From the IMG/VR virus record IMGVR_UViG_3300038825_001787: a DNA stretch of 64,000 nucleotides. One strand, written 5' to 3'. The DNA is from an uncultured virus (IMG/VR IMGVR_UViG_3300038825_001787) (lineage: Duplodnaviria > Heunggongvirae > Uroviricota > Caudoviricetes). Shown here one piece after another: positions 961-62,718 of this stretch. The position numbers and the translations under genes are program-made. The stretch's first letter is position 1. Every line of letters begins with the position of its first letter. The notes beneath the pieces were generated by a model. That model did no database searches and was not told the origin of the DNA. It saw only the letters and a program-made list of their open reading frames with translations.

Positions 961-1783
961 TTGGCAGTGTAAAGCAGAACCACCTTTCGGTGTCAAAGAA
1001 TGTCCAAATTACGACTATCCCGGTCCAGAGTTGGATAATTCAACAGGTGAATGGATTTGTAGAAAGTGTTTTAGAGTAATTGGTAATCAAAACTCTACCG
1101 ACGATGAAATACATAGTGATGATGCAATAGACGATGAAAACGCCGAAGAAGTGGAAATAGCATACGTAAGTGAAGGCGAAAAGAACATCGATCAGACACC
1201 TAGGCAAAAGCAAGAAATAAGAATTAGACGAGTGATTGAGGGAGTAATAGTACAAATAGATCCAGTAGATCAAGACTTTGCGGTATCCTTAACCAAGAAC
1301 CAATTTGAAATAATAAACATGATTCTTAGTCTGGCGGATGATGACATACCGCTTTTCAAAGGTGGTAAGAATTACAAACCAAGGGTGATTGCAGTAAATT
1401 CTTACTTTATCAGAAGATTACCAAATACAAAGGCAATGCTTGCCATGAAGATAAAACCCAAACAAGTAATTTCTAGAAAAACTATACTAGACAATATGTA
1501 TAGAACAGATGTAGATAATCCTATACATAGAAGTATAGACGATATAGGTAAACAATTAGGTATTCTTAGTACTATAATTGCACTTGCTATAGAAGAACAC
1601 GGTAGACTGAAACCTACCAACAAAGAACCTAAACCATTAGCACAAGCAGCCGCTTGGCTTTACATACAATGTAAAAAGAGCAAATATAAGATAACTAAGA
1701 AAGAATTCTATAAAATACCTAATCTTTCCAGAGATGCTATGAATAGAGCAATTGAATCTTACAGAGATCTTCCGCAATCTTAA
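902..1783 (+). CDS. tfb: TFB/TFIIB-like transcription initiation factor (divergent)
   Basis: Zn-ribbon-like CPNY...DNSTGEWICRKCFRVIG, acidic linker, two cyclin-like repeats (KPRVIAV; PLAQAAAWLYIQCK...ITKKEF...LSRDAMNRAI); start codon uncertain. Confidence 0.7.
   Translation: MLEVMFISATTRFPDILGTDWQCKAEPPFGVKECPNYDYPGPELDNSTGEWICRKCFRVIGNQNSTDDEIHSDDAIDDENAEEVEIAYVSEGEKNIDQTPRQKQEIRIRRVIEGVIVQIDPVDQDFAVSLTKNQFEIINMILSLADDDIPLFKGGKNYKPRVIAVNSYFIRRLPNTKAMLAMKIKPKQVISRKTILDNMYRTDVDNPIHRSIDDIGKQLGILSTIIALAIEEHGRLKPTNKEPKPLAQAAAWLYIQCKKSKYKITKKEFYKIPNLSRDAMNRAIESYRDLPQS
1482..1595. other. TpA-rich island inside CDS
   Basis: Dense TAG/CTA/TATA (actatactag...ctatacatagaagtatagacgatatagg); boundaries by eye. 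Confidence 0.55.
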
Positions 1784-1821
1784 AGACTCTTAGAAAGTAC
1801 CGTAGGTCTGAGGAAGTCAAT

Positions 1822-2442
1822 ATGGTAGACAAGGTTGCTTGGGCAGAATTTAGAAAAATACACAGTGGAATTAGTAGAGAGATTAAGTCAATGGCTTGGA
1901 ATGCTTACAAAACAGATGACTTCAAAGAGTATCTAAGTCTTTGTGAAGAAGCGAACTTTACTACACCACTAGATGTAGGTGTTACCGAGAATGCGGAAGA
2001 AACACCTGATGCGGTTCCAGAAGATAATATATTTGTAGAATATGCTAAGTTAAGCAGAAGGCTAAACCGATTCGGTATCAGTATGACAGTCGAAGAAAAA
2101 AGAACAATAGAAAAAAGACTAGGAGAAATAGCAAGAGAAACAATTCCAGATAACTATCATTGTACACCAACTGATGGTTGGCAGATTTGGTTCGGACCAA
2201 CACAACAGTGTTTGCTAATCAACACAACTAGGAAACTAGCATTTACGTGCTCACGTTCTTGGTGGCAAAAAAGATATCTAAACGCAATGTATGTACAACG
2301 CGAGTTAGTCAATGACGAAAAACAAATAGCAAGAATGCGTTCTAGTTATGAAATGAGAAAGAAATTAGTCAAGAGGGCACCATTGCCAGACGTAGAAATC
2401 ATGCTACCAACATCCGCAGCAGAATACCGAATGCGAGGTTGA
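1822..2442 (+). CDS. Hypothetical protein
   Basis: 206-aa ORF with genome-typical codon usage. Confidence 0.75.
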   Translation: MVDKVAWAEFRKIHSGISREIKSMAWNAYKTDDFKEYLSLCEEANFTTPLDVGVTENAEETPDAVPEDNIFVEYAKLSRRLNRFGISMTVEEKRTIEKRLGEIARETIPDNYHCTPTDGWQIWFGPTQQCLLINTTRKLAFTCSRSWWQKRYLNAMYVQRELVNDEKQIARMRSSYEMRKKLVKRAPLPDVEIMLPTSAAEYRMRG

Positions 2443-2461
2443 TACCATCTCTGATGACAAT

Positions 2462-2908
2462 TTGGTTTCTGAATTAGCCGCGCTCAAAGCACAAATGGCT
2501 ATGTTGATGAGTAGTAATACAGAATTAGCACCAAGTGTTTCTTCCATATGGGTTGTTTACGATGCATCTAAGATATCAGTGTGGTGTAGTAAAACAGATT
2601 GCCCACTATTGGGAAGAGAAGTAACATATGATGTAGTCAAAGAAGAAAAAGGCGATGACGGCGAATTAGAGTCAATCATTAAAACAGGACTCTCAGAAGA
2701 AGAATCAAACAGTGGAGATTATGATGCTAGAGTAATGCGATTAAGTTCTCCGAAGATAAAACACCATGATTTAGGTGTAATAGCATCTTTCACTTCCAAA
2801 AAGAAAGCAACTACTTTCATAGAAGACTACTTTCGGATGAATAGAGCAACTCTCAGTGGTAAAGATGCACCAGAAATTGGTTTATCAGAAATAGTCATTA
2901 CTGCATGA
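2462..2908 (+). CDS. Hypothetical protein
   Basis: 148-aa ORF directly following the previous gene; start uncertain. Confidence 0.7.
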   Translation: MVSELAALKAQMAMLMSSNTELAPSVSSIWVVYDASKISVWCSKTDCPLLGREVTYDVVKEEKGDDGELESIIKTGLSEEESNSGDYDARVMRLSSPKIKHHDLGVIASFTSKKKATTFIEDYFRMNRATLSGKDAPEIGLSEIVITA

Positions 2909-3013
2909 GTTTTGGAAAGTTAATTCTTTCCACAGTATACTTTAAGGACCTAACCTACGTCGTCAAACTTACCCACTAAATGTTTAGTCACATTTGTGGT
3001 AGGAATGACATAG

Positions 3014-6539: not shown

Positions 6540-8111
6540 ATGGAAGAGTACGACGAATACGATAATTTTGACGACGAACAAAAAGAAGATAAGACCAACC
6601 CACAGTGGAGAACACTTTCACCAAAAGAAAGAAAACTATTGATGAAAAATGTTTTTGGGAATCCAGATTGGTACGACGAATCACATGGTTCGCCAGTCTT
6701 TGAGGGTGGTCAAGCAAACCCAATGTTCGAAGAGATTTCTGAAAAAGCAGGTGCACCTGTTAGAGAAGTAAAAAGATATTATGCGGCATGGTTAAAGAGT
6801 CAAGGTTTTAGTCCAGCAGAGGCATTGAAGTCAAATGACAATATACAACAAAGCCACACACCAGCATCTTACTCAACAGCAACTTCACCACCACCAATGA
6901 GTTCACCACAGCCACAAGCAGTACAATTACCGACTTTACAACCACCCCCGTCGACAGATGGTGGCGGCAATGAAATGTGGGCTATGATGCAGTTCCTTAC
7001 ACAACAACAAGCAATGCAGATGCAACAACAACAGTTTCAAATGCAGATGATGATGGAACAACGCAGACTCGACCAACAGAAAGAAGGTGACACACGAAGA
7101 GAAGCGATGGCTCGTGACCAACAATTTATGAACCAACAAATGGCTTTTATGCGTGATATCACAAAGAGGGCAGGAGATGGAGACGGGTTCTTTGATTCTG
7201 AGTTCAAAGGCATTTTCAAAGAAAAAGTACTAGATAGTTTCATGGGTGAAAAAGACGACTCTTGGAAAGACTCAATCAAAGACGTGCTTGGTAGTGACAC
7301 GATGAAAGCAGCAGTTGGCGGTCTTGGTACGGCATTGGCGACAAGAGGTGGACCTCAGATACCAGCAGGTTACGATAATCCCGACTACAATCCATATGCA
7401 CAAACTGCAATGATTCAGCAACCGATTGCCGAAGCACAACCTGTACCACAAGCAATCCCACAACCTGTACCACAAGCAATCCCACAACCTGTACCACAAC
7501 CGGAAACACAGTTGGACGGTGTTTTCTTCGGTGACGAAGCACCCGTAGCAGAGCAACTACAAGCAACTCCAGAACCAGTTGTTCAACCACCACCACAGTT
7601 CAACGATGATGAATATAGAAAAATTCTATTCTCAGCGTTTGTAGAAGCAATGGGTCCCGTAGCACAAGACCAACAAGTTTTGGTTGCATTACAGCAACAA
7701 GTAGACGTAGCAGTTGATAATACTTTAAGAGAAATGCCACAAGCATTACCACAAATAAAACTACAAGCAATGAACGAAAAACTATTGTTAATTAGGAATC
7801 TAAGAGACATTGGAATGGGAATGATGGATTTGAGAGAAAGAACCCCAGCGGGTGAAGCACCATCTACTTTAGTAACCGCAGCAGTGATTGGCGAATTAAG
7901 AAAGAATCCTGAATTTTACAAGATATTTGCAGAAAACACATATGATGAGTTGATGGCAAAGATTGAACCATTCAAGCATACTGGTGCAGTAGAACAAGAC
8001 TACAGTTATCTACTACAACCACAAGTACAAGAGGTTTGCAGACCTCTATTGGCTGCAGTAACAAACGATGCAAAAATAAACGGTATGCCTAGCGTACCTA
8101 CTCTAGCGTAG
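6540..8111 (+). CDS. Gln/Met/Pro-rich low-complexity protein
   Basis: 523 aa; MMQFLTQQQAMQMQQQQFQMQMMMEQ tract and QPVPQAIP repeats. Confidence 0.85.
   Translation: MEEYDEYDNFDDEQKEDKTNPQWRTLSPKERKLLMKNVFGNPDWYDESHGSPVFEGGQANPMFEEISEKAGAPVREVKRYYAAWLKSQGFSPAEALKSNDNIQQSHTPASYSTATSPPPMSSPQPQAVQLPTLQPPPSTDGGGNEMWAMMQFLTQQQAMQMQQQQFQMQMMMEQRRLDQQKEGDTRREAMARDQQFMNQQMAFMRDITKRAGDGDGFFDSEFKGIFKEKVLDSFMGEKDDSWKDSIKDVLGSDTMKAAVGGLGTALATRGGPQIPAGYDNPDYNPYAQTAMIQQPIAEAQPVPQAIPQPVPQAIPQPVPQPETQLDGVFFGDEAPVAEQLQATPEPVVQPPPQFNDDEYRKILFSAFVEAMGPVAQDQQVLVALQQQVDVAVDNTLREMPQALPQIKLQAMNEKLLLIRNLRDIGMGMMDLRERTPAGEAPSTLVTAAVIGELRKNPEFYKIFAENTYDELMAKIEPFKHTGAVEQDYSYLLQPQVQEVCRPLLAAVTNDAKINGMPSVPTLA
7437..7499 (+). 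repeat. 24-bp in-frame tandem repeat (2.6 copies)
   Basis: CAACCTGTACCACAAGCAATCCCA x2 plus a 15-nt partial copy; encodes QPVPQAIP. Confidence 0.95.
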
Positions 8112-8120
8112 GTGAATTAA

Positions 8121-8270
8121 ATGATGCTAGAAGATGATCATATAGAAGATAAGTATAGTAATGATAGATATAATATAGATAGGTTAGTAATACCTACATG
8201 GGGATTTATATTATTATTCTTAGGGCCTTCTATACTTACTCTAGGTTATCTATCGTATAGTACAACATTG
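8121..8270. other. TpA-rich island inside CDS
   Basis: tatagaagataagtatagtaatgatagatataatatagataggttagtaatacctac...ctaggttatctatcgtatagtac. Confidence 0.65.
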
Positions 8271-10728: not shown

Positions 10729-10812
10729 ATGTTAAACAATAAAAATAGTTGGTTCTTGGTTGGTCTTATTGGGTCAATCTTTGCGCTATCTATAATTGGG
10801 AGAGTGGAATAA
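10729..10812 (+). CDS. 27-aa single-TM microprotein (not in ORF track)
   Basis: MLNNKNSWFLVGLIGSIFALSIIGRVE; its stop overlaps the next ATG (TAATG). Confidence 0.6.
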   Translation: MLNNKNSWFLVGLIGSIFALSIIGRVE

Positions 10813-11678
10813 TGGCTAAAAAAAACTACGGGCCTTACATGGCAGGTGGATTATTACTTGGTGGCCTATATCTTTTAACAAAAAATAATAACTCACTTGG
10901 ACCAACTAATGCAGCAAGACAGTCTGTAGCACAAGACCCATCTTACGCAGGGGTTACACCAGGTTTATTCCATTACATTTCAGAATCAACAGAATGGAAT
11001 GATTACCAAATTGTCCAAACAGCACTATCTCCAGATGTGCCAACAATAATAATTCCCTACACATACAATTCAACAGTTACACACTTGATGGCTCGCGGTA
11101 TGCCACAGAACGTATCAGAAAGCGAAGCAACCAAAATAAGAAACCAAGGATACCCTAGTGTAGTAAATAGATTAGAGAACCTATATAATAGTAGGAATAT
11201 GACTGTAGGAGATAGAAGAGAAATATATGCACATCTATTACCTATCTATAATGTAATGCAAATACCTAACGAACAACGTGTGCCACTACCAGGAGCGACT
11301 GTTTCGACAACCACACCAACAGCAGAGTCAGTGCAAGGCATGGCAATACGCCAAAACATTGCAGGTCATTACGACCCAGGAGTTGGAATAAATGGTAGAC
11401 AATCGACTAACCTTGCAGGTAACAGAAGAACTCGTACAATAAGTGGCATGAAAGCGTGGAGTAAAAATGCAGCAAAACAAATTTACGACCAACGGCAACT
11501 ATCTGCAACAAGGGAAATGACATTAAGAAATATGAAAAGTGGTATGGACATTAACCTCTACGAACCAGTAGACACTTTAGACATCATGTCAGAAACACCT
11601 AAACCAACTATGAATCAGGTAGAAAACGTAGGAAGCGCATTCGTTAAAACGAGAGGCGCTATGCGAAGGCTACTGTGA
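10812..11678 (+). CDS. Putative virion membrane protein with N-terminal TM anchor
   Basis: Start reassigned to ATG 10812 (MAKKNYGPYMAGGLLLGGLYLL) because of the TAATG coupling. Confidence 0.75.
   Translation: MAKKNYGPYMAGGLLLGGLYLLTKNNNSLGPTNAARQSVAQDPSYAGVTPGLFHYISESTEWNDYQIVQTALSPDVPTIIIPYTYNSTVTHLMARGMPQNVSESEATKIRNQGYPSVVNRLENLYNSRNMTVGDRREIYAHLLPIYNVMQIPNEQRVPLPGATVSTTTPTAESVQGMAIRQNIAGHYDPGVGINGRQSTNLAGNRRTRTISGMKAWSKNAAKQIYDQRQLSATREMTLRNMKSGMDINLYEPVDTLDIMSETPKPTMNQVENVGSAFVKTRGAMRRLL
11151..11270. other. TpA-rich island inside CDS
   Basis: taccctagtgtagtaaatagattagagaacctatataatagtagg...ctattacctatctataatg. Confidence 0.6.
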
Positions 11679-11682: not shown

Positions 11683-14600
11683 ATGACAATGCGACAGCGT
11701 CACCAAAGAACTCGAGATGTATTCGATACGGGTCCATTTGGTGGTTACCGTTCTTTAGGTAATACAGAAGGTATGACACCTTACAATGGGTACTATTACA
11801 CATATGCTGTAAGCACTTGGTCAGTATATGATTCAGAAGGTACGCTTTTGCAAACAGGCGGCGGTCCAAATACAACCAGAAATAGACAAAAAGCCATACA
11901 GTGGATAGATTCTGGAGAACCCCCAACTTACCCGGATAAAGAATTTAATGAGATAGAAAATTATGAACAGAATACTACAACAACGCTACCAAAAGAAGAC
12001 ATTGTTTATGAATCGTTTAGAGATGTATATTATGCTCAAGTGGTAATGGAAGTCATCACTCCAGACGAAGGATATAGTTTAGCATATGAAATGCTTGGGC
12101 ATCGGGCCATGCAGCACGCAAGTTGGCCTACGGCTTACAGACAAGGCATGTCTGATTACGACCCTACTAATTTCTTAGAACAGTTCGAAGCATACGAAAG
12201 AGCAGAAGAACTAGACGCCGCATATAACCCAGGAAAGGCACCAAATCCGTATACAGCCGGAGAGTATCTTGTTCCAAATGTAGGGCAGGCTTTGCTTCCC
12301 GATGAAAAGGTACCAGGAAGTAGTTATCACTACTGGGACGGTAATTTAGATACACACAATTGGGCTTGGCACGGTATTAGTACAAGTATCACAGTAGGTA
12401 AAACTGGAGATACTTCAGACAATACTGAGCCGTACCCCACACCAATATGTGATGCAATCGGTGGTTACGCAATGAGTATCACTCATTACATTGCATCTTA
12501 CAATGAAGAAGGTGGTTTCAATGGATACAGAGTGCTAGCCCAATCAGAATTAGATGGCGGTATACCAGCAGGAATACCCATAGCAACAGTGATGCAGATG
12601 TTCACAAAACCAGCAAAAACTAGAAATGGTAAAGACTTCGGCAAATTTTCATTGGGTGGAGCCCATTTTTATTATGACACAGAGAAGAATCCAATATGGA
12701 GGAAATCTATTGGTATGCCGATGAGTCCGTCATCTTTCTTTTTACTAGAACCAGAACTAGCCACCAAGAACAAGATTAAAAAAATAACTAACACTTTAAT
12801 GAATTCGGACCTTCTCCAAGGAACACACTACATATCTGCAAACGATGCAGAATCAACCAAATCATCTGGCCATAATAGTGTAAAGGGTATATTTACCAAA
12901 GGTCAACTAAGTCGCCAAGATACATTAAACAGAGATTTCGGTGGTCTAGGTTTTGGTTCATATAGAGTAGCAGAAAAGTCCAAACTACCATTTGCCGCCA
13001 GGGTAGAATGGTTGGGAGAAGGTGGTGAGTTTGGTACATATTCAAAACACCCAACAAGCATACCAGATTGTAACGGAGAAGGTAAAACAATGGTAGTTTA
13101 CCGTTTCCCAAGACAACTAGACCCTGTTGCCGATAGAGTAGAACTAGAAAATAATAATAAGAATCAGATGCCAAATTATGACGTGACAACCGCAACAAAA
13201 TATTGTTATCCATACCCTGGAAAAAGCGCAGACAAGAACAGTTACGCATTAATGGGAAGGCTGTTACCAAAGGGGTCATCTGACGATATAGGTTCTGACA
13301 AATTTACCACAGAAATAAACGGTGAAGTATTTGGTGGAAGAAGGTCAATTAAATTCATACCAATGGTAACCCCTTCACTACCACCGTCGAGTAGCCATCG
13401 ACCATATCACGTAGGCGCGGTAGGTTTGGATCAAATAGCGGCTAGTGCCGGTAACACTGCCCAACGAATGTTATTTGACAAAGTAGATCGTTTTTGTTTT
13501 GATACCGCTTCCATGAAAGGTGCAACGATTGCAGTTGCAGACCCGTTAAAGACTGCGTATTTCAATAACTCAATGATTACAAATGCCTACTTTATAGACA
13601 GAGACTTTGATGTTGGAAGCACCGCTTTCGTAATCGGTCAATGTATGTTGTCGTATGAAATGGATTCCGCATCAATAGATACTAAGTTAGGTTTAGTTGA
13701 TGCATCTGAAAGAATGATATTGACAACACGATATAGTAATGCGTTTGGTGGACCAATAAATAGTGGGGACGTTGGACAGCGTTCTGATAAGTTACAACCA
13801 AGAAGCCCAAGAGATGGGACTAACGCTGGTAAGTTTACCGATGATTATTTAATTCCAACCATGACTATGACAACAGAAGACATGGTTAGAAACGAAGAAC
13901 CAATGGGTGCATTAGCAGTTAGAGAGACATTCAAGAAAATATTTGGTTACGAGTTGACACCAGAATGGTTTGGTACATTGAGATTACCTAACCAAGACCC
14001 TAATGATCCTACTAGATATATAGTAGATACTGACTATGGTAAGTTTAGTTATCCCTATAGTATAGTAGGGTTTACTATACCTGGTTATTATAACGGACCT
14101 GTACTAAGATATGGAGAAGATGGAGAGCCACTCGGTGCAACAGATACACACCCAGGTTTTATCGGTAAGAGAAAAGCCTATGTCAATTATCAAAGCCCAT
14201 TTGGTACATTACATCGCCACACTATTAATTTCTCAGAAGAGATAGAAATACAGAACGAAATCATTGATACAGGTGGTTCGGTAACGGACGTATATGAAAA
14301 CCAAACAGATTCAGATAGTGGTGCATTTGGAGAAAAAATAGAAGATGTCACACAGTTAAAAGCAGAAACAATACAATTCGAAGAATGGTTAAGAGGTAGG
14401 TTAATGAACGACTACGGTGATGTGAGATTCACCGATAACGAATATAAGGCTTACTTTAGATTTTGGAATAAAGATTATGTTACAGGGAGAATGTTACTCG
14501 AAGCAGGTTATACAATACCTAATATCAACATGACAGCGTATGAAAACGAAGCAAGAAATCTTGGAATACCAGTTAGTGCTGCAGAACTCGAAGAATCAGA

Positions 14601-16329: not shown

Positions 16330-18332
16330 ACAAAATGAATTTTATAAGAAATAATGGTGAAGTAGTAGAAGTTAATGACAGAGATGTCCAAACTCTTGAA
16401 AAGGGAAACGGCTACACACTTTATGGGGCAAGACACAATCCAAGTGGTGAACAGATGGTAGGCGTAGTATATGACGGTAGCAATATAGCAAAACAAGAAG
16501 CAGAATATGCTGACAACGATATAGGTGAAGCATACGACCCAAATGACACCATAACGGCAAATCCACCAAAAACCAAAGTAATAAGTTGGAAAAATCTTAG
16601 ACTCCAAAGTGCAATATCCGGTGAGAAAGCAGTCAGAAAGGGTGTAACTGGTATAGACATTGGAGGCAGTACGGCATCACTAGCAAGAAAACTAGGAAGT
16701 TTCATTGCGTCAGGACAAGTTTCTACAGGGGTTTCAATCAGAGACGATCCGTTATTGTTTGTTACTACCGCAGAAAATTGGTATAGTTACATTAAAAATA
16801 TGAATACAGTTGATATTGGCGCAGAGTTTGCTGCCGGTGTTTCGCACGCACAAAGATCTTCAAATGCATTATTCGCTCACGAGTGGGAAAGTGACCCAGG
16901 TCATCACAACTTGATGAGTCGTTTACTACCAGGAGTTGATACACAAGATGCAATTGCAAAGGGGCAAATTGCTTACGATATATTGACAAGAGGTCGAGAA
17001 ATACTTTCACAACAAGGATACGGTGCTACACAACAAGAAGTTATGCACAGACTTGTTTTCGACATACTGCGCTCAATGCCAGTAAAGCAATACAACTATT
17101 ACACACTCTATCAACTACATCCAGATGAAGGAAACGAAGTGTACGCAGAATTCAAAAGCAGATACATTCCTTTGGAAACAGCAGAAGTAGAAATGGTTTT
17201 AGAAATGCAGAGAGCGTTAGAATCAGAAGGTGATGCATATGCTTTTAGAACCACAACAAACGAACAAACCGGAATACTTTCTTCCAAGTTGATGAGAGCA
17301 GCAGTTGCTGATTACTCAGTGGGTGACACAGTGAATGTTAGAACCTTGTTGATGACACTACAAGCACCACCATATAACTACAGACCAAGAGCAGTCGATA
17401 TAGCAATGGCATCAGGTCAAAGTGGTGCAGCAGTGGCTAGTGGTACAACGTTTTTGGAATTTAATGTACAAAACAAATCAGCAGTTGACCTAGTTGTAAA
17501 TGCTGGTTCTGGTAGAAAATTAAGTAATGAAAAAATCGGCGCCTATGCACTAAATATAGATCCTCAGCATTTAGATAGGAATAATAATTTAAGAATAAGT
17601 AAAGCCCATGCTGATAATTACGAAACCATATTAATCGCTACAAGTCAATACAATACCGCACCAAAGTTCGTCGCAGTGAGAGTTGGTGGTGGCGGTAATA
17701 ATAATAAAGGTGGTAAATTCAAGATAATTGCGTACAATGAAGAGTATCTAAGACTTGGTGGTAACGACAGACCAGACCAAAGAGCAAGAGGAATTAGAAG
17801 AGGTCTTGGCAAACAAAATCCTGCCAAGAAAGCAAAGAAGAATCCAAGCGGTAAAGGCAGAGGAAACTTTCACTTTGTTCAACTATGGCCAACAACACAA
17901 TTAGATATTAAGAAAAGAGAACCAGTCGGTGGAATGGCAGGTGGTACTAGACATGGCACAGGCAAGTCAAAGAAAGGCCAAGGATATTGGACCAGAGGTC
18001 TAAACAAAGCAACCAAAGATATGCAAAACAAACAACTACTGATGATGGGAACACACAAGAAAACAGGCGAAGAAGCACCTTACAGAATTAAATTCCCAGT
18101 CTCTTTGTTCAAAATTGTTAACCATCCAACAGCAGGATACAAAACACTAATGCCCAAGAAAGATTTACAAAACAAGAAATTCATCGCAGCATACCAAGAT
18201 TTCATAAATCATTATGGATTACCAAAACACGCACCTTCGAAAGATACTTATAACCGATTTATTATACCGAAGTCAGAAAGAGCAAAGAGTCCTTACTACA
18301 TAGATATGCGTAAAAAAAGCGGTAAAAAGTGA
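16326..18332 (+). CDS. Multidomain hypothetical protein with Asn-Pro delimiters and basic C-terminal domain
   Basis: 668 aa; RHNPS, TANPP, KQNPAKKAKKNPSG. Confidence 0.8.
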   Translation: MNKMNFIRNNGEVVEVNDRDVQTLEKGNGYTLYGARHNPSGEQMVGVVYDGSNIAKQEAEYADNDIGEAYDPNDTITANPPKTKVISWKNLRLQSAISGEKAVRKGVTGIDIGGSTASLARKLGSFIASGQVSTGVSIRDDPLLFVTTAENWYSYIKNMNTVDIGAEFAAGVSHAQRSSNALFAHEWESDPGHHNLMSRLLPGVDTQDAIAKGQIAYDILTRGREILSQQGYGATQQEVMHRLVFDILRSMPVKQYNYYTLYQLHPDEGNEVYAEFKSRYIPLETAEVEMVLEMQRALESEGDAYAFRTTTNEQTGILSSKLMRAAVADYSVGDTVNVRTLLMTLQAPPYNYRPRAVDIAMASGQSGAAVASGTTFLEFNVQNKSAVDLVVNAGSGRKLSNEKIGAYALNIDPQHLDRNNNLRISKAHADNYETILIATSQYNTAPKFVAVRVGGGGNNNKGGKFKIIAYNEEYLRLGGNDRPDQRARGIRRGLGKQNPAKKAKKNPSGKGRGNFHFVQLWPTTQLDIKKREPVGGMAGGTRHGTGKSKKGQGYWTRGLNKATKDMQNKQLLMMGTHKKTGEEAPYRIKFPVSLFKIVNHPTAGYKTLMPKKDLQNKKFIAAYQDFINHYGLPKHAPSKDTYNRFIIPKSERAKSPYYIDMRKKSGKK

Positions 18333-38755: not shown

Positions 38756-39292
38756 ATGGCCATCACTATTAGCACACCCCACTTCAAAGAATCAGTAGAT
38801 GACCCTAATATCAAAACATTTCTTACCCAACTAGAATCTTTTTTAGACGCAAAGAATATGCCCTACTATAGTGTAAGAGGTCAGTCTTTGAAAACAATGT
38901 TGGATTTATCCACATCTGAAGCAAGAGGTACTACTTACAATAACGAACTCGCAGCAGCACTAACTGTTAGTGATATACACATTGAATTAAGAGCGTATGA
39001 TTTCGATACACATGAAGATTGGTCTGACTCCGATTTTGTTTTTGGTAAATTAATAGGATATACTGATGAAGAGTTATTGAAGAACTTCGAAGATACTATT
39101 GGTTCTAGAGCATCATATGAAACAAACATAATAACACCGATTGGTCATTATTCTAGCGCATTGAGTGAGTTTGTTTATCAAATACCTAGTATAGTAATAT
39201 ATGTTAATGTAGATAGTAGTAATCTATACCCTACTATAACAGAAAGTATAACAGATATTATTTTGGATTACGAGGAGCGTAGAACTTCATAG
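38756..39292 (+). CDS. Hypothetical acidic protein
   Basis: 178-aa ORF with alpha/beta pattern; no confident family. Confidence 0.7.
   Translation: MAITISTPHFKESVDDPNIKTFLTQLESFLDAKNMPYYSVRGQSLKTMLDLSTSEARGTTYNNELAAALTVSDIHIELRAYDFDTHEDWSDSDFVFGKLIGYTDEELLKNFEDTIGSRASYETNIITPIGHYSSALSEFVYQIPSIVIYVNVDSSNLYPTITESITDIILDYEERRTS
39180..39260. other. TpA-rich island inside CDS
   Basis: tacctagtatagtaatatatgttaatgtagatagtagtaatctataccctactataac. Confidence 0.65.
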
Positions 39293-50019: not shown

Positions 50020-50448
50020 GTGGCGCAGGGAGGTAACTCAGAAAGAAGCCAAGTGCACGGCACTACTGGCTCTGGTAATATTTTACCGATTTCTGCAGTT
50101 ACACAAGAAGATACCACATCTTTACTTTTTACAAAACAAGGCAGAGAAGACTTTGCCTCAACCAGCCATCCTAGAATGACTATCAGTAGTCATACTGTGA
50201 AAAAGCAACTACCTTCACTATGTGGACTACAAGAAGTAGTGGCACGAACTGGGTTTTTGATAACCGCCGATAATAGCAATACCGTTACCGTTATGATTGG
50301 TGGAAGGACAGTTAGCGCAACAGATGGCATACCGTTAGTCGCTGGACAATCTATAATGATAGATATAGTAAGACTATCTAAGATATATGCTATAGCAGCA
50401 AGCGACCCTAGTGGTGGTACCTGTAACTTATTTTGGTTAGATATGTGA
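50020..50448 (+). CDS. Candidate penton/minor jelly-roll structural protein
   Basis: ITADNSNTVTVMIGG..V...GIPLVAGQSIMIDI...KIYAI small beta-sandwich pattern; heads the spike operon. Confidence 0.55.
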   Translation: MAQGGNSERSQVHGTTGSGNILPISAVTQEDTTSLLFTKQGREDFASTSHPRMTISSHTVKKQLPSLCGLQEVVARTGFLITADNSNTVTVMIGGRTVSATDGIPLVAGQSIMIDIVRLSKIYAIAASDPSGGTCNLFWLDM

Positions 50449-50465: not shown

Positions 50466-51499
50466 CATCACCTCCAGCATTAGCCGACATTGATGGTGAC
50501 GGTGATTTTGACGGTACACTGCGTCGAATAAAAGCCGGCACTGGTATAACAATGAGCCTTAGTAATAACATATTAACAATAAACTCAACTGCTAGTGGTG
50601 GTGGAGGAGTAAATTTTTCTGATGGCGCACCTTCTGATAGTGACGGCGATAATGGTGACATCAATATAGATTACACTAACGGCGACATATATCGTAAAAC
50701 AGGTGGTGCTTGGTCGTTAATTGACACAATCCCCTCGATAGGAAGAACACGTAGATTTGTGGCAACTTACAATGTTTCGTCTTGGGGTGCTGGGAAGTTT
50801 GGAATAAACTCAGGCAAGTATTATTTTCATAAAGCAAGTTTTCCAGGCTGCACAACAGTAGCACACGCAGAGGCTTATTTGGCAACAACTGGTTTTACAG
50901 TAGGTACAAGATTTATCTTTCAAAACATTGACAACCTAGACAGCATAGCAGTGTATAGAGTCACTGATTCAACTATACACACTAACGGTGATGCAGGTTA
51001 CGACAATGGAACGGTTGGAACAGAACATGTCGCTTTAACACTAACAAAAGAATCTGGAGATGATTTTAGTGCAGATGCAAAATACGCTATTACAACAACT
51101 ATTCCTTTAAACTTCCTTTTCGACTCTAGCGGTAATGCTACCATATCTGCCGACTTAACTATAAAAGAGTTTATACTAACTACAGCAGAAGGTGCTACTA
51201 GCAATACCAACATAACCACAATAGACTCGTGGGCTATTACTACTTACCGTAGCGCAAAATATGAATATCACATAACAGATACCGGCGCAGACCCAGATGA
51301 ATATCAAACGGGAGAAATTATGGTAATACATGACGGAAGTAACTCAAAACACAACTCATATGGGGTAATCTTTACAGGCACGGCTGCTTTAGGGACGTTC
51401 AGTACAGACGTGTCGTCAGGTAACTGTCGACTCAGATTTACTGCGGCAAACACGAACGCAATGGCGATTAAAGTAGCAAGAAAAGCAATCAAGGTGTGA
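50453..51499 (+). CDS. Spike/fibre protein
   Basis: IKAGTGITMS...LTINST, GAPSDSDGDNGD..ID...GDIYRK fibre motifs; C-terminal IDSW..YRSAKY...GEIMVIHDG domain. Confidence 0.75.
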   Translation: MGYMTSPPALADIDGDGDFDGTLRRIKAGTGITMSLSNNILTINSTASGGGGVNFSDGAPSDSDGDNGDINIDYTNGDIYRKTGGAWSLIDTIPSIGRTRRFVATYNVSSWGAGKFGINSGKYYFHKASFPGCTTVAHAEAYLATTGFTVGTRFIFQNIDNLDSIAVYRVTDSTIHTNGDAGYDNGTVGTEHVALTLTKESGDDFSADAKYAITTTIPLNFLFDSSGNATISADLTIKEFILTTAEGATSNTNITTIDSWAITTYRSAKYEYHITDTGADPDEYQTGEIMVIHDGSNSKHNSYGVIFTGTAALGTFSTDVSSGNCRLRFTAANTNAMAIKVARKAIKV

Positions 51500-54811: not shown

Positions 54812-54855
54812 TATTAATGTGTTAAAACCCTTGCACTGGGGAAAGTGAACCGTGC

Positions 54856-57294: not shown

Positions 57295-57298
57295 TACT

Positions 57299-57931: not shown

Positions 57932-58506
57932 TGGCTCGATGGGAAGTAACAGGAATCCCTAATGGGGAGAGTGGTGATTTCAAAATTGAGAGTTGCACAA
58001 CAACCACAGGCGAAGGTTCTTGGTTGAATTATGTAAACCATAAACAAATAACTGGCGGGCCTTACACAGTTCTGTATCAGAAAATGTATGGGCATTGGCT
58101 AAATATTATGCAAGATACAGAAGCAGAGTATACAGAACACGATTGGTTGATGTCTCGTTTGTCAGGAGATATTCTAATAGGTGGATTAGGTATAGGTATG
58201 ATACATATACCCTTACTAGCCTCTAGTGATGTAACTAGTGTAACTATAGTAGAGAAGAATCAAGATGTAATAGACCTAGTATGGGCTAACTGTGCTAAGG
58301 ATGATAGATTTACGCTAGTCTGTGATGACATTAACACATGGGATCCAGATGCTACAGATGGGCTACCTACAACAAGTTGGGATGTAGGATGGTTTGATAC
58401 TTGGTTAACTTTCGACGAGCAAATGCCAGATTATATTACACGAATAAATAATAAATACGGTTCGTATGTTTCAGAAATAGGCGGATGGGAATGGCCTGAC
58501 GAGTAG
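57928..58506 (+). CDS. Class I SAM-dependent methyltransferase / spermidine-synthase-like protein
   Basis: IMQDT..E, GDILIGGLGIG, VTIVEKNQDVI, WFDTW. Confidence 0.75.
   Translation: MMARWEVTGIPNGESGDFKIESCTTTTGEGSWLNYVNHKQITGGPYTVLYQKMYGHWLNIMQDTEAEYTEHDWLMSRLSGDILIGGLGIGMIHIPLLASSDVTSVTIVEKNQDVIDLVWANCAKDDRFTLVCDDINTWDPDATDGLPTTSWDVGWFDTWLTFDEQMPDYITRINNKYGSYVSEIGGWEWPDE
58170..58320. other. TpA-rich island inside CDS
   Basis: ttaggtataggtatgatacatatacccttactagcctctagtgatgtaactagtgtaactatagtag. Confidence 0.65.
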
Positions 58507-58526
58507 AATGATTTATATTAATACGA

Positions 58527-60943: not shown

Positions 60944-60954
60944 GAGGAATAAAA

Positions 60955-61689
60955 ATGCCAATAGACCCAACAAGAAACCCGCTAGCAGACGCAATGTTTT
61001 CTGGAGCAAATACACAACAGTTCCAAGAAATGTCGAATGAAGATATTGTTCAATTACAGAAAGAACAAGAAAACAGACTCATCGGGTCAATGATGGTTCA
61101 GTCTATTTTTCTCGCATTAGCACTTATGCTGTATGAAAGTTGGTCATGGGGTAAATTTGACCAAGTATGGCAATCTGCTTTATTGTATGGTATGCTTGCA
61201 TTTACATTTCAAGCATCACTTTACTTACTTTACAGGTCTATGTTTGAAGACTCTACAAACTACCGCCGTCAAATTAAGCGAATGAAATCTAAGAACAAGC
61301 GTCGTATGGCTCAGATCAAGTATGAAGTAGACAAACAACGTACAGAGTGGATGTTAGACCAACAGGTACAACAGTTCCAAAATAATGCTATGATGGCACA
61401 AGCAGATGGTTTTGTCTCTCCTGCTGAACAAAATGTTTTACAACAACAGTATCAACAACTACAACAAACCGATCAGCAAGTACCTAGCGTGAATGCTAAT
61501 ATGCAATATGATTTAGCAGACTTAGCAAAGCAACTAGGACTAGACCGCCACAGAATCGGTCCAATACCAATGGGTCCATCTTTAACACCGACACCAATAA
61601 CTGTCACACAAGCCCCTTTAGGACAATTCCAGGTTCAGCAACCAGTGACTCAGAACACATTGGACCTGGATCCGACAGCGAGCAATTAA
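60955..61689 (+). CDS. Membrane protein (2 TM) + Gln-rich coiled coil
   Basis: AGGAGG SD; two hydrophobic segments then a charged helix and Q-rich tail. Confidence 0.8.
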   Translation: MPIDPTRNPLADAMFSGANTQQFQEMSNEDIVQLQKEQENRLIGSMMVQSIFLALALMLYESWSWGKFDQVWQSALLYGMLAFTFQASLYLLYRSMFEDSTNYRRQIKRMKSKNKRRMAQIKYEVDKQRTEWMLDQQVQQFQNNAMMAQADGFVSPAEQNVLQQQYQQLQQTDQQVPSVNANMQYDLADLAKQLGLDRHRIGPIPMGPSLTPTPITVTQAPLGQFQVQQPVTQNTLDLDPTASN

Positions 61690-61761
61690 TACAATGTCAA
61701 GCAATAACAGATATGGGAACACAGTGCGAGAGAATAACGAGGTCAGGATGGTGTCACCAAC

Positions 61762-61995
61762 ATGGGACTAATATTTCGTGATGAAAGAGATGACCAACAA
61801 GAAGCATTGATGCAAACAACTGCTGTTGGACTGACATGGCAATATCGCTATCTTACTATGAAGTGGATGGTTTACACTGTGCTGTCTGGAATCGGCTCAG
61901 GTTTAGGCGTAGCATTGACAGACTATGCTGTTATGAGAATGACTGACCATACTGGTCTAGTAGACTGGGCTTTGACTGCATTGATGGGGGCATAA
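61762..61995 (+). CDS. Small membrane protein
   Basis: 77 aa; hydrophobic WMVYTVLSGIGSGLGVAL. Confidence 0.7.
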   Translation: MGLIFRDERDDQQEALMQTTAVGLTWQYRYLTMKWMVYTVLSGIGSGLGVALTDYAVMRMTDHTGLVDWALTALMGA

Positions 61996-61998
61996 TAC

Positions 61999-62718
61999 AT
62001 GGGCTCAGCAGAAATCATCTTAGCACATGGTGTATGGAGAATCATGGCTGGTGTTTTGACATTAGTTCCTTATGAGATAAGTGTTATTGGCGCAAGTAAA
62101 AGTGGTAAGACGACACTTGATGGCCAACTAACCACTAGAGGAGAAATAAGAAAACTATACGAAAAAGATAGAACTCATCATAAAAAGGACTGGTTAGGTA
62201 GGTACAAGTTACCTGACGCAACTAAGAAGCGAATACGTTCAGATGGATTAGCAAGAACAGTTGTTTCTAGAGACTTGGGTGGACATATAGAGTACCATTC
62301 AACATGGTTGAGAGATATGATTAACCGTAACTGTAGTAGTGTAGTACTAGTAATAGATAATAGACACCTAATAGATACTAATAATATAGATAATCAAACT
62401 GCTCTAGGATACTTAGTAAGAGCATTAAGCGATAAGAATAACACTCCTAGAGGACTCACTTGGAGGGGATGGTGGCGAGCAAAGAAATACTATCCTAAGA
62501 GAGTCGTCGTACTTGCTAACAAAGCAGACGAGTGGATGACTGATGCTGACCACGCTACATGGGAGAAGGGTTTTATTGCCCGTCACCAAGTATTCGACGT
62601 ATTTAGAGAAGACTTTTACCGCTTGCAATCCATGAATGTTCCTGTATATATGGATGCAATCAGTGCAAAATATGGGTGGAACGTACAGGACGCTTTAATC
62701 AAGGGGTTATCAATATGA
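61999..62718 (+). CDS. Small GTPase, Arf/Ras-superfamily-like
   Basis: G1 GASKSGKTT, G2 RT, G3 DLGG, G4 NKAD, G5 SAK. Confidence 0.85.
   Translation: MGSAEIILAHGVWRIMAGVLTLVPYEISVIGASKSGKTTLDGQLTTRGEIRKLYEKDRTHHKKDWLGRYKLPDATKKRIRSDGLARTVVSRDLGGHIEYHSTWLRDMINRNCSSVVLVIDNRHLIDTNNIDNQTALGYLVRALSDKNNTPRGLTWRGWWRAKKYYPKRVVVLANKADEWMTDADHATWEKGFIARHQVFDVFREDFYRLQSMNVPVYMDAISAKYGWNVQDALIKGLSI
62330..62430. other. TpA-rich island inside CDS
   Basis: ctgtagtagtgtagtactagtaatagataatagacacctaatagatactaataatatagataat. Confidence 0.7.

What the first reader, a model, noticed from the sequence alone, without database searches (positions are those of the whole stretch)
1482..62430. Hidden DNA layer: recurrent TpA-rich islands written into unrelated coding sequences every 3-9 kb
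Seen: about 12 patches of 80-200 bp where TAG/CTA/TATA steps become dense and the usual A-runs thin out, at about 1.5, 8.2, 11.2, 14.05, 20.0, 28.75, 32.8, 39.2, 44.3, 50.4, 58.25 and 62.4 kb, with weaker ones near 17.55, 22.2 and 25.2 kb. They sit inside unrelated genes (TFB, LigD-like, methyltransferase, GTPase) and arise largely through codon choice (ATA, CTA, GTA, AGT, TAT, GAT). They share composition, not a fixed repeat. Established: TpA is the most flexible, least stable base step and is usually under-represented. Inference: dispersed cis-acting sites for genome condensation, histone or core-protein positioning, packaging, loop anchoring or unwinding.
Basis: partly seen in the sequence, partly recalled or inferred. 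Interest (0 to 1): 0.85.

Follow-up and report, generated by a model that had tools for sequence, protein, structure and literature searches.

The report
Evenly spaced TpA-saturated islands inside viral genes
A little-known marine virus carries, about every 5.5 kb and hidden inside ordinary genes, 50-180-bp stretches where nearly every free codon choice makes the dinucleotide TA, and evolution preserves those TAs, which points to an unrecognised DNA-level signal written over protein-coding sequence.

Summary
The three "weaker" sites are marginal or not distinct.

The islands are not explained by amino-acid content. In 200 within-gene synonymous shuffles, 14 peaks of at least 20 TA were observed against a mean of 2.1. 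Island codon choice reaches 91% (often 100%) of the maximum TA count that synonymous recoding allows, against 43% elsewhere.

The signal is TA-specific. Third positions that cannot form a TA have background composition.

The islands share no motif, no 10-bp phasing and no RNA structure. Their spacing is more even than chance (CV 0.33; P about 0.0003).

Relatives from independent marine metagenomes keep islands at the same gene positions. Within islands, TA-forming third positions are 91% conserved, non-TA ones 68%, and flanks 57-58%. So the TA steps themselves are under selection.

Best reading (about 0.4): these are double-stranded DNA architectural elements, nucleation or anchor sites for a protein that reads TpA-step deformability, as MvaT does. 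This step is inferred. Unwinding, RNA-level, promoter and rare-codon readings fit worse. I found no description of such islands.

The parts
1480..1587 (.). TA island 1, inside the + ORF 902-1783
   Evidence: 22 TA in 108 bp, GC 0.29. z 3.1 against synonymous shuffles. In frame. No relative covering it was fetched.
8090..8267 (.). TA island 2. It spans the end of ORF 6540-8111, the 9-nt spacer and the start of ORF 8121-8891.
   Evidence: 37 TA in 178 bp. It is the highest peak, 29 TA per 120 bp, z 4.1. TA saturation is 0.95-1.0.
11154..11259 (.). TA island 3, inside ORF 10749-11678
   Evidence: 21 TA in 106 bp. z 4.9. Saturation 0.94-1.0.
14000..14098 (.). TA island 4, inside ORF 11683-15021
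   Evidence: 23 TA in 99 bp. Saturation 1.0 in five successive windows. Conserved in G001 at 1473, with synonymous codon identity 30/32.
19973..20082 (.). TA island 5, inside ORF 18329-20464
   Evidence: 20 TA in 110 bp. Apart from a 90-bp match at 19580-19669, it is the only stretch of window 19252-21575 that blastn aligns with G001 (86% over 100 bp).
28727..28784 (.). TA island 6, inside ORF 27409-31560
   Evidence: 15 TA in 58 bp. z 4.4. G001 has an island at the homologous place, 15390.
32739..32814 (.). TA island 7, inside the 2118-aa ORF 31481-37837
   Evidence: 19 TA in 76 bp. z 5.2. Aligned and conserved in L006, L036, L024 and L011.
39179..39255 (.). TA island 8, at the 3' end of ORF 38756-39292
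   Evidence: 19 TA in 77 bp. The core is nearly invariant in 10 relatives while the upstream coding sequence diverges.
44257..44350 (.). TA island 9, in the conserved 541-aa protein gene 43981-45606 (aa 92-123)
   Evidence: 34 of 34 homologous sequences carry 13-19 TA in this 31-codon segment, against gene means of 4.5-7.5. It is the only peak of synonymous identity in the gene, 0.79-0.82 against about 0.5.
50347..50399 (.). TA island 10, at the 3' end of ORF 50020-50448
   Evidence: 12 TA in 53 bp. The core is conserved in 10 relatives. Synonymous codon identity with G001 is 17/17.
58178..58297 (.). TA island 11, inside the methyltransferase gene 57928-58506
   Evidence: 23 TA in 120 bp. The gene is absent from G001. 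G001 has an island of its own at 43216, in sequence with no blastn match to the window.
62326..62430 (.). TA island 12, inside ORF 61999-62718 (P-loop GTPase-like)
   Evidence: 23 TA in 105 bp. Conserved in G001 (51502) and in L057, whose thermosome is 68% identical.
51143..51194 (.). Marginal TA patch in ORF 50453-51499
   Evidence: 8 TA in 52 bp; 20 TA per 120 bp, z 2.2. The distant relative L031 has its stronger island at the matching place of the homologous gene.
17563..17602 (.).
   Evidence: 7 TA in 40 bp; z 2.3. G001 shows no island at the homologous place.
39541..40674 (+). Candidate reader of the islands (inferred, not shown): a protamine-like basic protein
   Evidence: 377 aa, pI 12.0, 30% K/R, with repeats of the type TTRRK-(A/S)PKRRK followed by a hydrophobic C-terminal part. 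A homologue is present in the distant relative L034. No Pfam family.

Best explanation
What the islands are. They are composition-defined cis-acting elements of the double-stranded genome. Each is a 50-180-bp array of TpA steps, poor in A- and T-runs, overlaid on coding sequence and held in place by selection on the TA dinucleotides themselves.

How they most likely work. They serve as high-affinity nucleation or anchoring sites for an architectural DNA-binding protein that reads the deformability of TpA steps by indirect readout. The bacterial silencer MvaT reads DNA this way: it prefers multiple TpA steps, is penalised by A-tracts and tolerates G/C interruptions. With one island every 3-9 kb, such a protein could coat, loop or condense the whole genome of about 140 kb. 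Candidate readers are the virus's own protamine-like protein (ORF 39541-40674) or a host chromatin protein.

Shown: the TA saturation, its TA-specificity, the conservation of position and of the TA-forming bases, the even spacing, and the absence of a motif, of helical phasing and of RNA structure.

Inferred: that the level of action is duplex DNA, that a protein reads the islands, and which protein it is.
For: 1. TA saturation. In 30-codon windows centred on islands (71 windows), the observed TA count is 91% of the maximum reachable by synonymous recoding, and often 100%. It is 43% (sd 16%) in the other 3611 windows. The 511 non-island windows with equal TA potential reach only 42%.

2. TA-specificity.
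- T-ending codons are chosen where the next codon starts with A.
- Third positions where no TA can be made have background composition: A .35, T .37, C .19, G .08 (n = 113) against A .41, T .31, C .17, G .11 (n = 8817).
- ATA makes up 0.92 of Ile codons in islands against 0.44 elsewhere. GTA makes up 0.93 of Val codons against 0.37.
- Lys is AAG in 8 of 9 cases against 0.39 elsewhere.
- The T of TA falls at codon position 3 in 112 cases, position 2 in 103 and position 1 in 27.

3. Selection on the TA bases themselves. Four islands were compared across relatives, using third codon positions only.
- 54 TA-forming columns in islands: mean identity 0.91.
- 34 non-TA columns in islands: 0.68.
- 115 TA-forming columns in flanks: 0.58.
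- 464 non-TA columns in flanks: 0.57.
- Mann-Whitney p = 5e-5 (island TA against island non-TA) and 1e-12 (island TA against flank TA).

4. Synonymous constraint in one gene. In the 541-aa gene (30 non-redundant sequences), pairwise synonymous identity is about 0.5 throughout. It has a single peak of 0.79-0.82 at the island. A more conserved protein stretch (aa 186-206) has only 0.47-0.50.

5. Positional conservation.
- 8 of the 9 window islands lying in the part covered by the 61.5-kb relative G001 have a G001 island at the homologous place.
- 34 of 34 homologues of the 541-aa gene keep the island, including those at 52-54% amino-acid identity.

6. Even spacing. Window: n = 12, CV 0.33, P(CV at most the observed) = 0.0003 against random placement. 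G001: n = 11, CV 0.28, P = 0.0001. The spacing carries on into minus-strand genes of G001.

7. Turnover that keeps an island per interval.
- Where gene content differs, each genome has its own island: window 58.2 kb in a methyltransferase gene that G001 lacks, and G001 43216 in sequence with no blastn match to the window.
- In distant relatives, islands sit about 0.8 kb from the window's position.

8. A precedent for a reader of this composition. Passages of PMC4466236 state that MvaT prefers flexible sequences with multiple TpA steps, that A-tracts carry a penalty, and that G/C interruptions are tolerated.

9. A candidate reader. The virus encodes a protein of pI 12 with repeated (S/A)PKRRK-like units.
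Against: - No binding, structural or expression data exist. The DNA level is inferred mainly from the spacing and from the strand symmetry of TA, and TA is equally UA in the mRNA.
- CA/TG steps are also deformable, yet the islands replace them with TA (CA 0.28x). A pure flexibility requirement does not obviously predict this.
- There is no 10-bp phasing, so classical wrapping signals are absent.
- No H-NS or MvaT-family protein was found among the window's ORFs. The host is unknown.
- SPKK-like basic repeats are, from recall, associated with A/T-rich minor grooves in general, not with TpA in particular.
- The turnover argument rests on three cases.
- The spacing test for G001 is not independent of the window's, because 8 islands are shared.
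Confidence: 0.4

Rival explanations
1. Duplex-destabilised (unwinding) elements. The islands would be the places where the helix opens first, used to start replication, recombination or transcription bubbles.
For: The TA step is the weakest stack in the nearest-neighbour values I used, which are recalled, not from a call. The five least stable 60-bp windows of the window are all islands, and 10 of the 25 least stable are islands. Even spacing would suit multiple initiation zones.
Against: - Selection is for TA only. Third positions that cannot form a TA are not A/T-enriched (GC3 0.27 against 0.28).
- GC-raising choices occur: CCC makes up 0.27 of Pro codons against 0.08 elsewhere.
- Non-TA third positions in islands are only weakly more conserved than flanks (0.68 against 0.57).
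- G/C bases interrupt the islands every few bases, which hinders cooperative opening.
- Several AT-rich non-island windows are equally unstable. Island 11 is not among the 25 least stable, and for island 1 the listed window lies just beside it.
Confidence: 0.13
2. RNA-level elements. The islands would be UA-dense, unstructured stretches of the long mRNAs that serve as entry sites for a UA-preferring endoribonuclease (programmed processing or decay), or as landing pads for an RNA-binding factor.
For: All 12 islands are inside transcribed ORFs, and intergenic spacers are not TA-dense (0.07-0.14 TA per base). The islands are weakly folding and have no excess structure (z from -2.1 to +1.1). Selection on UA alone would look the same as selection on TA.
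Against: - Cleavage inside 12 of 53 genes has no evident benefit.
- The islands have no consistent place relative to gene starts or ends (KS p = 0.14).
- The spacing pattern continues across a switch of gene orientation in G001.
- The RNA libraries laid were contigs only and show no ends at the islands. This is uninformative rather than negative.
Confidence: 0.15
3. Clusters of targets for a TA-specific DNA enzyme, such as a nickase, a base-modifying enzyme or a recombinase. The analogy is with clustered GATC sites read through methylation (recalled).
For: Only the TA dinucleotide is conserved, not its flanks, as expected if the unit recognised is TA itself. The virus carries a methyltransferase of unknown specificity and a RusA-type resolvase.
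Against: No enzyme with TA-only specificity was identified in the window. TA is common outside the islands (7.6 per 100 bp), so clustering alone would have to give the specificity.
Confidence: 0.1
4. Arrays of TATA-like boxes. These would be intragenic promoters or sinks for a TBP/TFB-type factor or for a virus-specific RNA polymerase.
For: TATA is 11.9-fold enriched, with 52 copies in 1160 bp. ORF 902-1783 has a faint TFIIB-repeat hit (E 0.097). Passages of PMC5434244 say that the thermosome-bearing 'group D' elements carry an RNA polymerase A gene, but membership of this virus in that group was not tested.
Against: - T-runs, which are part of archaeal TATA consensus sequences (recalled), are depleted (TT 0.50x).
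- There is no orientation and no fixed distance to downstream genes.
- Sigma-70-type sites are not enriched: 34 found against 44.9 expected in 36-56 kb, none inside the three islands there.
- Intergenic regions upstream of gene blocks do not look like islands.
Confidence: 0.08
5. Translational pause sites made of clusters of rare codons or slow codon pairs.
For: Islands are rich in ATA, CTA, AGA, AGT and GTA. No tRNA genes lie in the window.
Against: - T-ending codons are chosen only when the next codon starts with A, so the unit selected is the dinucleotide across codon borders, not the codon.
- Island 2 runs across an intergenic spacer.
- Only 12 of 53 genes have an island, at no fixed relative position (0.10-0.85 of gene length).
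- Spacing follows the genome, not the genes.
Confidence: 0.04
6. No function. The islands would be local Ile/Tyr/Asp-rich protein sequence, a mutational bias (RIP-like CpA to TpA, or deamination), or patches imported from AT-rich relatives.
For: - The amino-acid sequence alone raises the expected TA count to 12-19 per 120 bp.
- Ile is 2.1x and Tyr 1.9x enriched.
- The dinucleotide pattern resembles RIP indices (recalled): TA is up while CA and TG are down.
Against: - Observed counts exceed the shuffles at every island, z 3.0-5.2.
- 511 windows of equal TA potential are only 42% saturated.
- ATA at 0.92 of Ile codons cannot arise from transitions at the third codon position (ATC to ATT) alone, and neutral third positions are unshifted.
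- TA-forming positions are conserved far above flanks in contigs from many independent metagenomes.
- Two control phage regions show 0 (T4) and 3 weaker (phiKZ) clusters against 11 in the window.
Confidence: 0.03

Closest known systems
High-affinity nucleation sites of xenogeneic silencers (H-NS, and MvaT in particular)
   Same: The site is defined by composition and DNA shape, not by a motif. MvaT prefers multiple TpA steps, is penalised by A-tracts and tolerates G/C interruptions (PMC4466236, passages read). That is the make-up of the islands. Dispersed sites from which a protein can spread or bridge are, from recall, how these silencers work.
   Different: No H-NS or MvaT-family gene was seen in the window, and the host is unknown and possibly not bacterial. 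From recall, silencer targets are usually promoters or AT-rich foreign genes. They are not codon-level-saturated, evenly spaced and conserved patches inside a virus's own genes.
Synonymous constraint elements (cis-acting elements embedded in viral ORFs)
   Same: There is a local excess of synonymous conservation inside coding sequence.
   Different: From recall, known cases are sequence- or structure-specific: RNA stem-loops, packaging signals, overlapping genes. Here only the TA dinucleotides are constrained. There is no RNA structure and no shared motif.
Baculovirus homologous regions (hrs) and similar dispersed origin/enhancer repeats of large DNA viruses (recalled)
   Same: Several cis elements are dispersed around a genome of about 130-140 kb.
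   Different: From recall, hrs are intergenic, repeated and palindromic. The islands are intragenic and share no repeat.
Scaffold/matrix attachment regions, base-unpairing regions and nucleosome-positioning sequences rich in TA steps (recalled)
   Same: These are AT/TA-rich elements defined by physical properties and spaced along the DNA.
   Different: There is no 10-bp phasing. There is no general A/T enrichment. A-tracts are depleted rather than used. The elements sit inside coding sequence.
Engineered UpA-high or codon-pair-deoptimised segments in synthetic attenuated viruses (recalled; a related paper, PMC7881332, was seen only in the listing)
   Same: Synonymous choices are pushed to maximise TA/UA, including at codon junctions.
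   Different: Those are man-made and cover whole genes. These are natural, occur in contigs of many metagenomes, are 50-180 bp long and are conserved.

Membership tests
H-NS/MvaT-type silencer nucleation site | DNA with multiple TpA steps; for MvaT, also an A-tract penalty and tolerance of G/C interruptions | tested here: met
   TA is at 2.9x, AA at 0.62x and TT at 0.50x, and island GC is 0.24-0.37 with interspersed G/C. The preference itself is as stated in PMC4466236.
H-NS/MvaT-type silencer nucleation site | A cognate H-NS or MvaT-family protein in the host or the element | tested here: not met
   No such Pfam family was found among the window's ORFs scanned. The host genome is unknown, and the rest of the roughly 138-kb contig was not available.
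H-NS/MvaT-type silencer nucleation site | Demonstrated preferential binding and spreading or bridging | not testable with these tools
   This needs EMSA, DAP-seq or ChIP.
Dispersed repeat elements (hr-like origins/enhancers, MITEs) | Copies share sequence or inverted repeats | tested here: not met
   No k-mer (k = 5-8) is present in more islands than in Markov-1 resamplings. Hairpin potential is no greater than in shuffles.
DNA unwinding element | The local minimum of helix stability is achieved by general A/T richness | tested here: inconclusive
   The five least stable 60-bp windows are islands, but other AT-rich windows match several islands. Neutral third positions are not A/T-shifted.
Nucleosome or histone rotational positioning sequence | A 10-11-bp periodicity of TA/WW steps | tested here: not met
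   The autocorrelation of TA positions shows only 3-nt periodicity: lags 9, 12, 15 and 21 are high, lags 10, 11 and 20 are not.
Promoter (bacterial sigma-70 type) | -35 and -10 hexamers with the right spacing, enriched at the sites | tested here: not met
   34 sites were found against 44.9 (sd 6.6) expected in 36-56 kb. None lies inside islands 8-10.
Promoter (archaeal TATA/BRE type) | An oriented TATA box with BRE at a fixed distance upstream of a transcription or gene start | tested here: inconclusive
   TATA is enriched 11.9x, but T-runs are depleted and there is no consistent distance to the next start codon (KS p = 0.14). No transcription-start data were available.
Rare-codon / translational pause cluster | Selection acts on codons irrespective of the neighbouring codon | tested here: not met
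   Third-position T is raised only before A-starting codons. Neutral sites equal the background. Island 2 crosses an intergenic spacer.
Structured RNA element | Folding energy below that of shuffles, or a conserved structure | tested here: not met
   12 islands gave z from -2.10 to +1.08, and 7 of the 12 z values are 0 or below.
RIP-like or deaminase hypermutation patch | Transition-driven change that decays neutrally afterwards | tested here: not met
   The dinucleotide indices resemble RIP. However, ATA makes up 0.92 of Ile codons, neutral C and G are unchanged, and TA positions are conserved at 0.91 against 0.58 in flanks.

The most novel reading that the evidence does not exclude
The genome carries a second, mechanical code. 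Evenly spaced TpA-saturated 'soft spots' would be obligatory punctuation for folding the roughly 140-kb DNA. They would act as nucleation points where the virus's protamine-like core protein (ORF 39541-40674) starts condensing the genome in a virion whose conserved 541-aa protein is predicted to be mostly beta-strand. A spacing rule, one island per 3-9 kb, would be enforced by evolution: islands are replaced nearby when a gene is lost or diverges.
Probability: 0.2. Interest if true: 0.9.

Novelty: categorically new. Interest (0 to 1): 0.82.

Why it matters
If the reading holds, ordinary protein-coding sequence can carry a dense, selectable signal made only of one dinucleotide step. Motif searches, RNA-structure scans and GC plots all miss it. 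The test used here, observed TA against the synonymous maximum, detects it easily and can be applied to any genome.

It would give a natural, sequence-encoded system for studying indirect readout of DNA deformability and genome folding in a virus. It would also be a concrete case of an evenly spaced architectural element in a prokaryote-style genome.

It matters in practice for synonymous recoding and gene synthesis, because codon 'optimisation' would erase the islands. It also matters for interpreting synonymous constraint in viral metagenomes.

Finally, it flags an unannotated marine virus lineage. That lineage has contigs of about 138-142 kb, no match in the GenBank phage collection, and unusual content: a thermosome-like chaperonin and a protamine-like protein.

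Tried and rejected
- Whole genome of the window: none is held.
- Source or relatives in annotated phages: megablast of 30-50 kb and tblastn of the 541-aa protein gave no match.
- IMG/VR: a single-protein scan and an exact 40-mer found nothing. The alignment query found one contig.
- Earlier notes of this scan: nothing by place, words or sequence.
- Shared motif: none beyond composition. No boundary motif by eye.
- Helical phasing: none.
- RNA structure: none.
- tRNA genes: none.
- Sigma-70 promoter clustering: none.
- Relation to the next start codon: 7 of 12 islands lie within 450 nt (binomial p = 0.027, threshold chosen after seeing the data; KS p = 0.14). I treat this as not significant.
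- RNA evidence: 15 RNA-labelled runs hold part of the 42-51.9 kb stretch. The four runs laid are contigs only, with no informative starts, ends or poly(A) loose ends among the rows shown. They therefore say nothing on promoters or processing.
- Identity of the large ORFs: PDB sequence searches of three of them gave nothing below E 0.085.
- The 541-aa protein.
  - The PDB profile search gave nothing.
  - The atlas searches gave no usable hit.
  - The AlphaFold model is weak (pLDDT 62.3, pTM 0.51).
  - Its best PDB match is a chain of the Sulfolobus polyhedral virus 1 reconstruction (E 1.9e-4, TM 0.16/0.41).
  - Other beta-rich proteins, including other viral capsid proteins, follow at low TM. 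The fold class is left open.
- SPV1 as a control genome: the accession is not held.
- Mosaic or recombination-boundary idea: island 5 lies in the middle of a divergent stretch, not at its edge. I did not pursue it.
- Off-frame stop ('ambush') idea: TG, and with it TGA, is depleted rather than enriched, so stop codons as such are not what is maximised.
- Literature: three full-text searches found no description of such islands (terms around TA-rich/TpA/intragenic/bacteriophage/synonymous, TpA steps/flexib/virus/packag/genome, and TA dinucleotide/coding sequence/viral genome/cis-acting). This is a limited search of open-access text only.

Full report
**What the window is.** The 64 kb are 93% coding, with 47 of 53 called genes on the + strand, GC 0.40 and overall TA observed/expected 0.88.
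- Recognisable genes include a ribonucleotide-reductase-like protein and a HAD phosphatase. A 2118-aa ORF carries DUF5754, DUF5824 and a guanylate-kinase domain.
- There is also a thermosome-type chaperonin (E 3.9e-139), a methyltransferase, a tail-spike-like beta-helix protein and a RusA resolvase.
- Most other ORFs have no family.
- No whole genome is held for the window. Nothing similar is in the GenBank phage collection.
- The 541-aa protein of 43981-45606 has 51 homologues, all from marine metagenome sources. Its own contig is 137,882 bp.
- The chaperonin is about 40% identical to archaeal thermosomes.
- Passages of the magrovirus paper PMC5434244 describe a 'group D' of thermosome- and resolvase-bearing elements without a recognised capsid gene. 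This virus may belong near them. I did not test that, and the host is unknown.

**Check of the observation.** The next peaks have 20, 20, 18 and 18.
- Thresholded islands are 53-178 bp long, carry 0.18-0.26 TA per base and have GC 0.24-0.37.
It gives on average 2.09 peaks of at least 20 TA (max 6) against 14 observed, and z of 3.0-5.2 at each island.
- The local protein sequence raises the expectation to 12-19 TA, so amino-acid content helps but does not explain the peaks.
- AA (0.62x) and TT (0.50x) are depleted. CA (0.28x) and CG (0.23x) are strongly depleted. TATA is 11.9-fold enriched.

**The islands are saturated with TA.** For every 30-codon window I computed, by dynamic programming, the largest and smallest TA count that synonymous recoding allows.
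- Windows centred on islands (71) sit at 91% of that range, and many sit at 100%. The other 3611 windows sit at 43% (sd 16%).
- 511 non-island windows with the same TA potential sit at 42%.
- All 12 islands are in frame in + strand ORFs.
- Ile is ATA in 92% of cases (44% elsewhere), Val is GTA in 93% (37%), Ser is AGT in 71% (23%), and Pro is never CCA (58% elsewhere).

**The unit selected is the dinucleotide.** It is not the codon, and it is not A/T content.
- T-ending codons are used where the next codon begins with A. The T of TA is at codon position 3 in 112 cases, position 2 in 103 and position 1 in 27.
- At third positions where no TA can be formed, island composition (A .35, T .37, C .19, G .08; n = 113) equals the background (A .41, T .31, C .17, G .11; n = 8817).
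- Lys is AAG in 8 of 9 island cases against 39% elsewhere. This fits avoidance of A-runs.

**What the islands are not.**
- They share no k-mer beyond what a first-order Markov model of the islands gives, and no boundary motif.
- TA positions show codon periodicity only, nothing at 10-11 bp.
- As RNA they fold no better than dinucleotide shuffles (z from -2.10 to +1.08).
- Sigma-70-like sites are not enriched: 34 against 44.9 expected in 36-56 kb.
- Intergenic spacers are not TA-dense (0.07-0.14 TA per base).
- The position within genes (0.10-0.85 of gene length) and the distance to the next start codon do not differ significantly from random (KS p = 0.14).
- In stacking energy the five least stable 60-bp windows are islands. 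But other AT-rich windows are as unstable as the remaining islands, so stability does not single them out (parameter values recalled).

**Spacing.**
- The 12 islands are 2.8-8.7 kb apart (mean 5.5 kb, CV 0.33). Among 20,000 random placements the CV was this low in a fraction of 0.0003.
- The relative G001 has 11 islands with CV 0.28, a fraction of 0.0001. The two tests are not independent, because 8 islands are shared.

**Relatives.**
- A profile of the 541-aa protein fetched 42 metagenome loci and one IMG/VR contig of 61.5 kb, G001, which I read in full.
- G001 is about 75-92% identical in the blocks blastn aligns. It has islands at the homologous places of 8 of the 9 window islands in the region it covers.
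- Apart from one 90-bp match, island 5 is the only stretch of a 2.3-kb divergent region that still aligns.
- The ninth island (58.2 kb) lies in a methyltransferase gene that G001 lacks. In sequence with no blastn match to the window, G001 has an island of its own at 43216.
- Two further G001 islands, beyond the window's end, lie in minus-strand genes.
- Alignments of islands 7, 8, 9, 10 and 12 show nearly invariant cores flanked by synonymous divergence.
- All 34 full-length homologues of the 541-aa gene carry 13-19 TA in the homologous 31 codons, against gene means of 4.5-7.5.
- The four most distant homologues (52-54% identity, GC about 0.5) still have a TA-saturated window at the same offset.

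**Selection.**
- Against G001, codons encoding the same amino acid are identical in 160/185 cases (0.865) in islands and in 5973/8949 (0.667) elsewhere.
- In 30 non-redundant sequences of the 541-aa gene, pairwise synonymous identity is about 0.5 everywhere. The one exception is a peak of 0.79-0.82 at aa 106-126, the island core.
- The most conserved protein stretch, aa 186-206, has only 0.47-0.50.
- The decisive split is by column, for third codon positions of four islands across relatives:
  - TA-forming columns in islands (54): mean identity 0.91, and 80% of the columns reach 0.9 or more.
  - Non-TA columns in islands (34): 0.68.
  - TA-forming columns in flanks (115): 0.58.
  - Non-TA columns in flanks (464): 0.57.
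  - Mann-Whitney p = 5e-5, 1e-12 and 0.011 for the three contrasts.
- Observed substitutions such as CTA/TTA, TAT/TAC and ATA/GTA keep the TA.
- The constraint is therefore on TA density, not on a particular sequence. The counts are not corrected for phylogeny.

**Turnover.**
- Some lineages have an extra island 2.14 kb downstream of the start of the 541-aa gene (L036, L011, L009, L010).
- In distant relatives the neighbours of island 9 sit about 0.8 kb from the window's islands 8 and 10. They lie in the adjacent gene, and intervals of 6-7 kb are kept.
- Together with the 58.2-kb / G001-43216 case, this suggests that presence per interval matters more than the host gene. It rests on three cases.

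**Controls.** With the same saturation detector, counting clusters of at least 3 windows:
- 50 kb of T4 give 0 clusters.
- 50 kb of phiKZ give 3 weak ones (15-19 TA per 100 bp).
- The window gives 11 and G001 gives 11.

**How it most likely works.**
- What is selected is the number of TpA steps in a short stretch, on a genome-wide grid and regardless of gene or strand. That points to a property of the duplex rather than of codons or of a folded RNA.
- General melting is a poor fit, because only TA is selected.
- The best documented reader of exactly this make-up is the silencer MvaT. It prefers several TpA steps, is penalised by A-tracts and tolerates G/C interruptions. H-NS shares the TpA preference (PMC4466236, abstract and passages).
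- I therefore propose that the islands are nucleation or anchoring sites for an architectural protein with this kind of indirect readout.
- One candidate reader is encoded next to island 8. ORF 39541-40674 has pI 12.0, 30% K/R, about a dozen repeats of the TTRRK-(A/S)PKRRK type and a hydrophobic C-terminal part. It is conserved in the distant relative L034.
- It lies in a block with a small P-loop ATPase that has faint HerA/FtsK-type hits.
- That block also holds the 541-aa protein. Its weak model is mostly beta-strand, and its best match is a chain of the SPV1 virion reconstruction.
- Against a simple flexibility argument, CA/TG steps, which are also deformable, are replaced by TA.

**Rivals and novelty.**
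- RNA-level UA elements, targets of a TA-specific DNA enzyme, unwinding zones and TATA-factor arrays remain possible. They are ranked under Rival explanations.
- Rare-codon pausing, amino-acid composition, mutational bias and imported patches are contradicted by the tests above.
- Three literature searches found no description of such islands. They cover open-access text only.
- The RNA libraries that hold the virus were available only as contigs and say nothing about starts or cleavage.

Noticed in passing
window 39541-40674 (+): A 377-aa ORF with pI 12.0 and 30% K/R. It has about a dozen repeats of the type TTRRK-(A/S)PKRRK, followed by a Gly/Ala-rich hydrophobic C-terminal part. It looks protamine- or H1-like. 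It has no Pfam family, and a homologue is present in the distant relative L034. A minus-strand ORF (39531-40217) overlaps it but translates to low-complexity L/F/R sequence.
   Followed up: partly
window 43981-45606 (+): A conserved 541-aa protein found only in marine metagenomes (51 homologues). Its AlphaFold model is weak (pLDDT 62.3) and mostly beta-strand. The best PDB match is a chain of the Sulfolobus polyhedral virus 1 reconstruction (E 1.9e-4, low TM). It is possibly the capsid protein, but the fold is unresolved.
   Followed up: partly
window 38011-38715 (+): A small (234 aa) P-loop ATPase with an AAA_22 hit and faint HerA (DUF87) and TraG-type hits. Its size and position would suit a packaging ATPase of the FtsK/HerA kind (that comparison is recalled).
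   Followed up: partly
window 42674-42703 (+): A strong intrinsic-terminator-like hairpin (13 pairs, 9 of them G-C) followed by TTTTTT. It lies in the 317-bp spacer upstream of the gene block that holds the 541-aa protein.
   Followed up: no
window 31481-37837 (+): A 2118-aa ORF combining DUF5754, DUF5824, a guanylate-kinase domain and a Rad17-like P-loop hit. It carries island 7 near aa 420-445.
   Followed up: no
window 59260-60813 (+): A thermosome-type (group II) chaperonin gene. It is about 40% identical to those of Thermoplasmata and Thermoproteota MAGs, 93% to that of G001 and 68% to that of the IMG/VR contig L057.
   Followed up: partly
window 42000-51900 and 36001-56000 (public runs): Three oligo-dT-primed marine RNA libraries from one study (X2, X3, X5) hold contigs of 90-95%-identical relatives over nearly the whole 20 kb. 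Three small runs labelled with a single (coded) organism hold 46-70% of the sampled words. Either could bear on the host or on polyadenylation. The contigs cannot tell RNA from carried-over DNA.
   Followed up: partly
window 54893-58773 versus G001 39507-47960: A hypervariable segment. The tail-spike-like gene (812 aa in the window, 1330 aa in G001) shares only its start between the two genomes. The genes that follow differ, and the window's methyltransferase is absent from G001.
   Followed up: partly
L036 12161, L011 11867, L009 8379, L010 2338: A lineage-specific extra TA-saturated island about 2.14 kb downstream of the start of the 541-aa gene. The window has only a weak TA peak near the homologous place (46091-46210, 17 TA per 120 bp).
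   Followed up: partly
window 8888-9328 (-): A RusA-type Holliday-junction resolvase gene (E 3.7e-26). It is one of only six minus-strand genes in the window.
   Followed up: no
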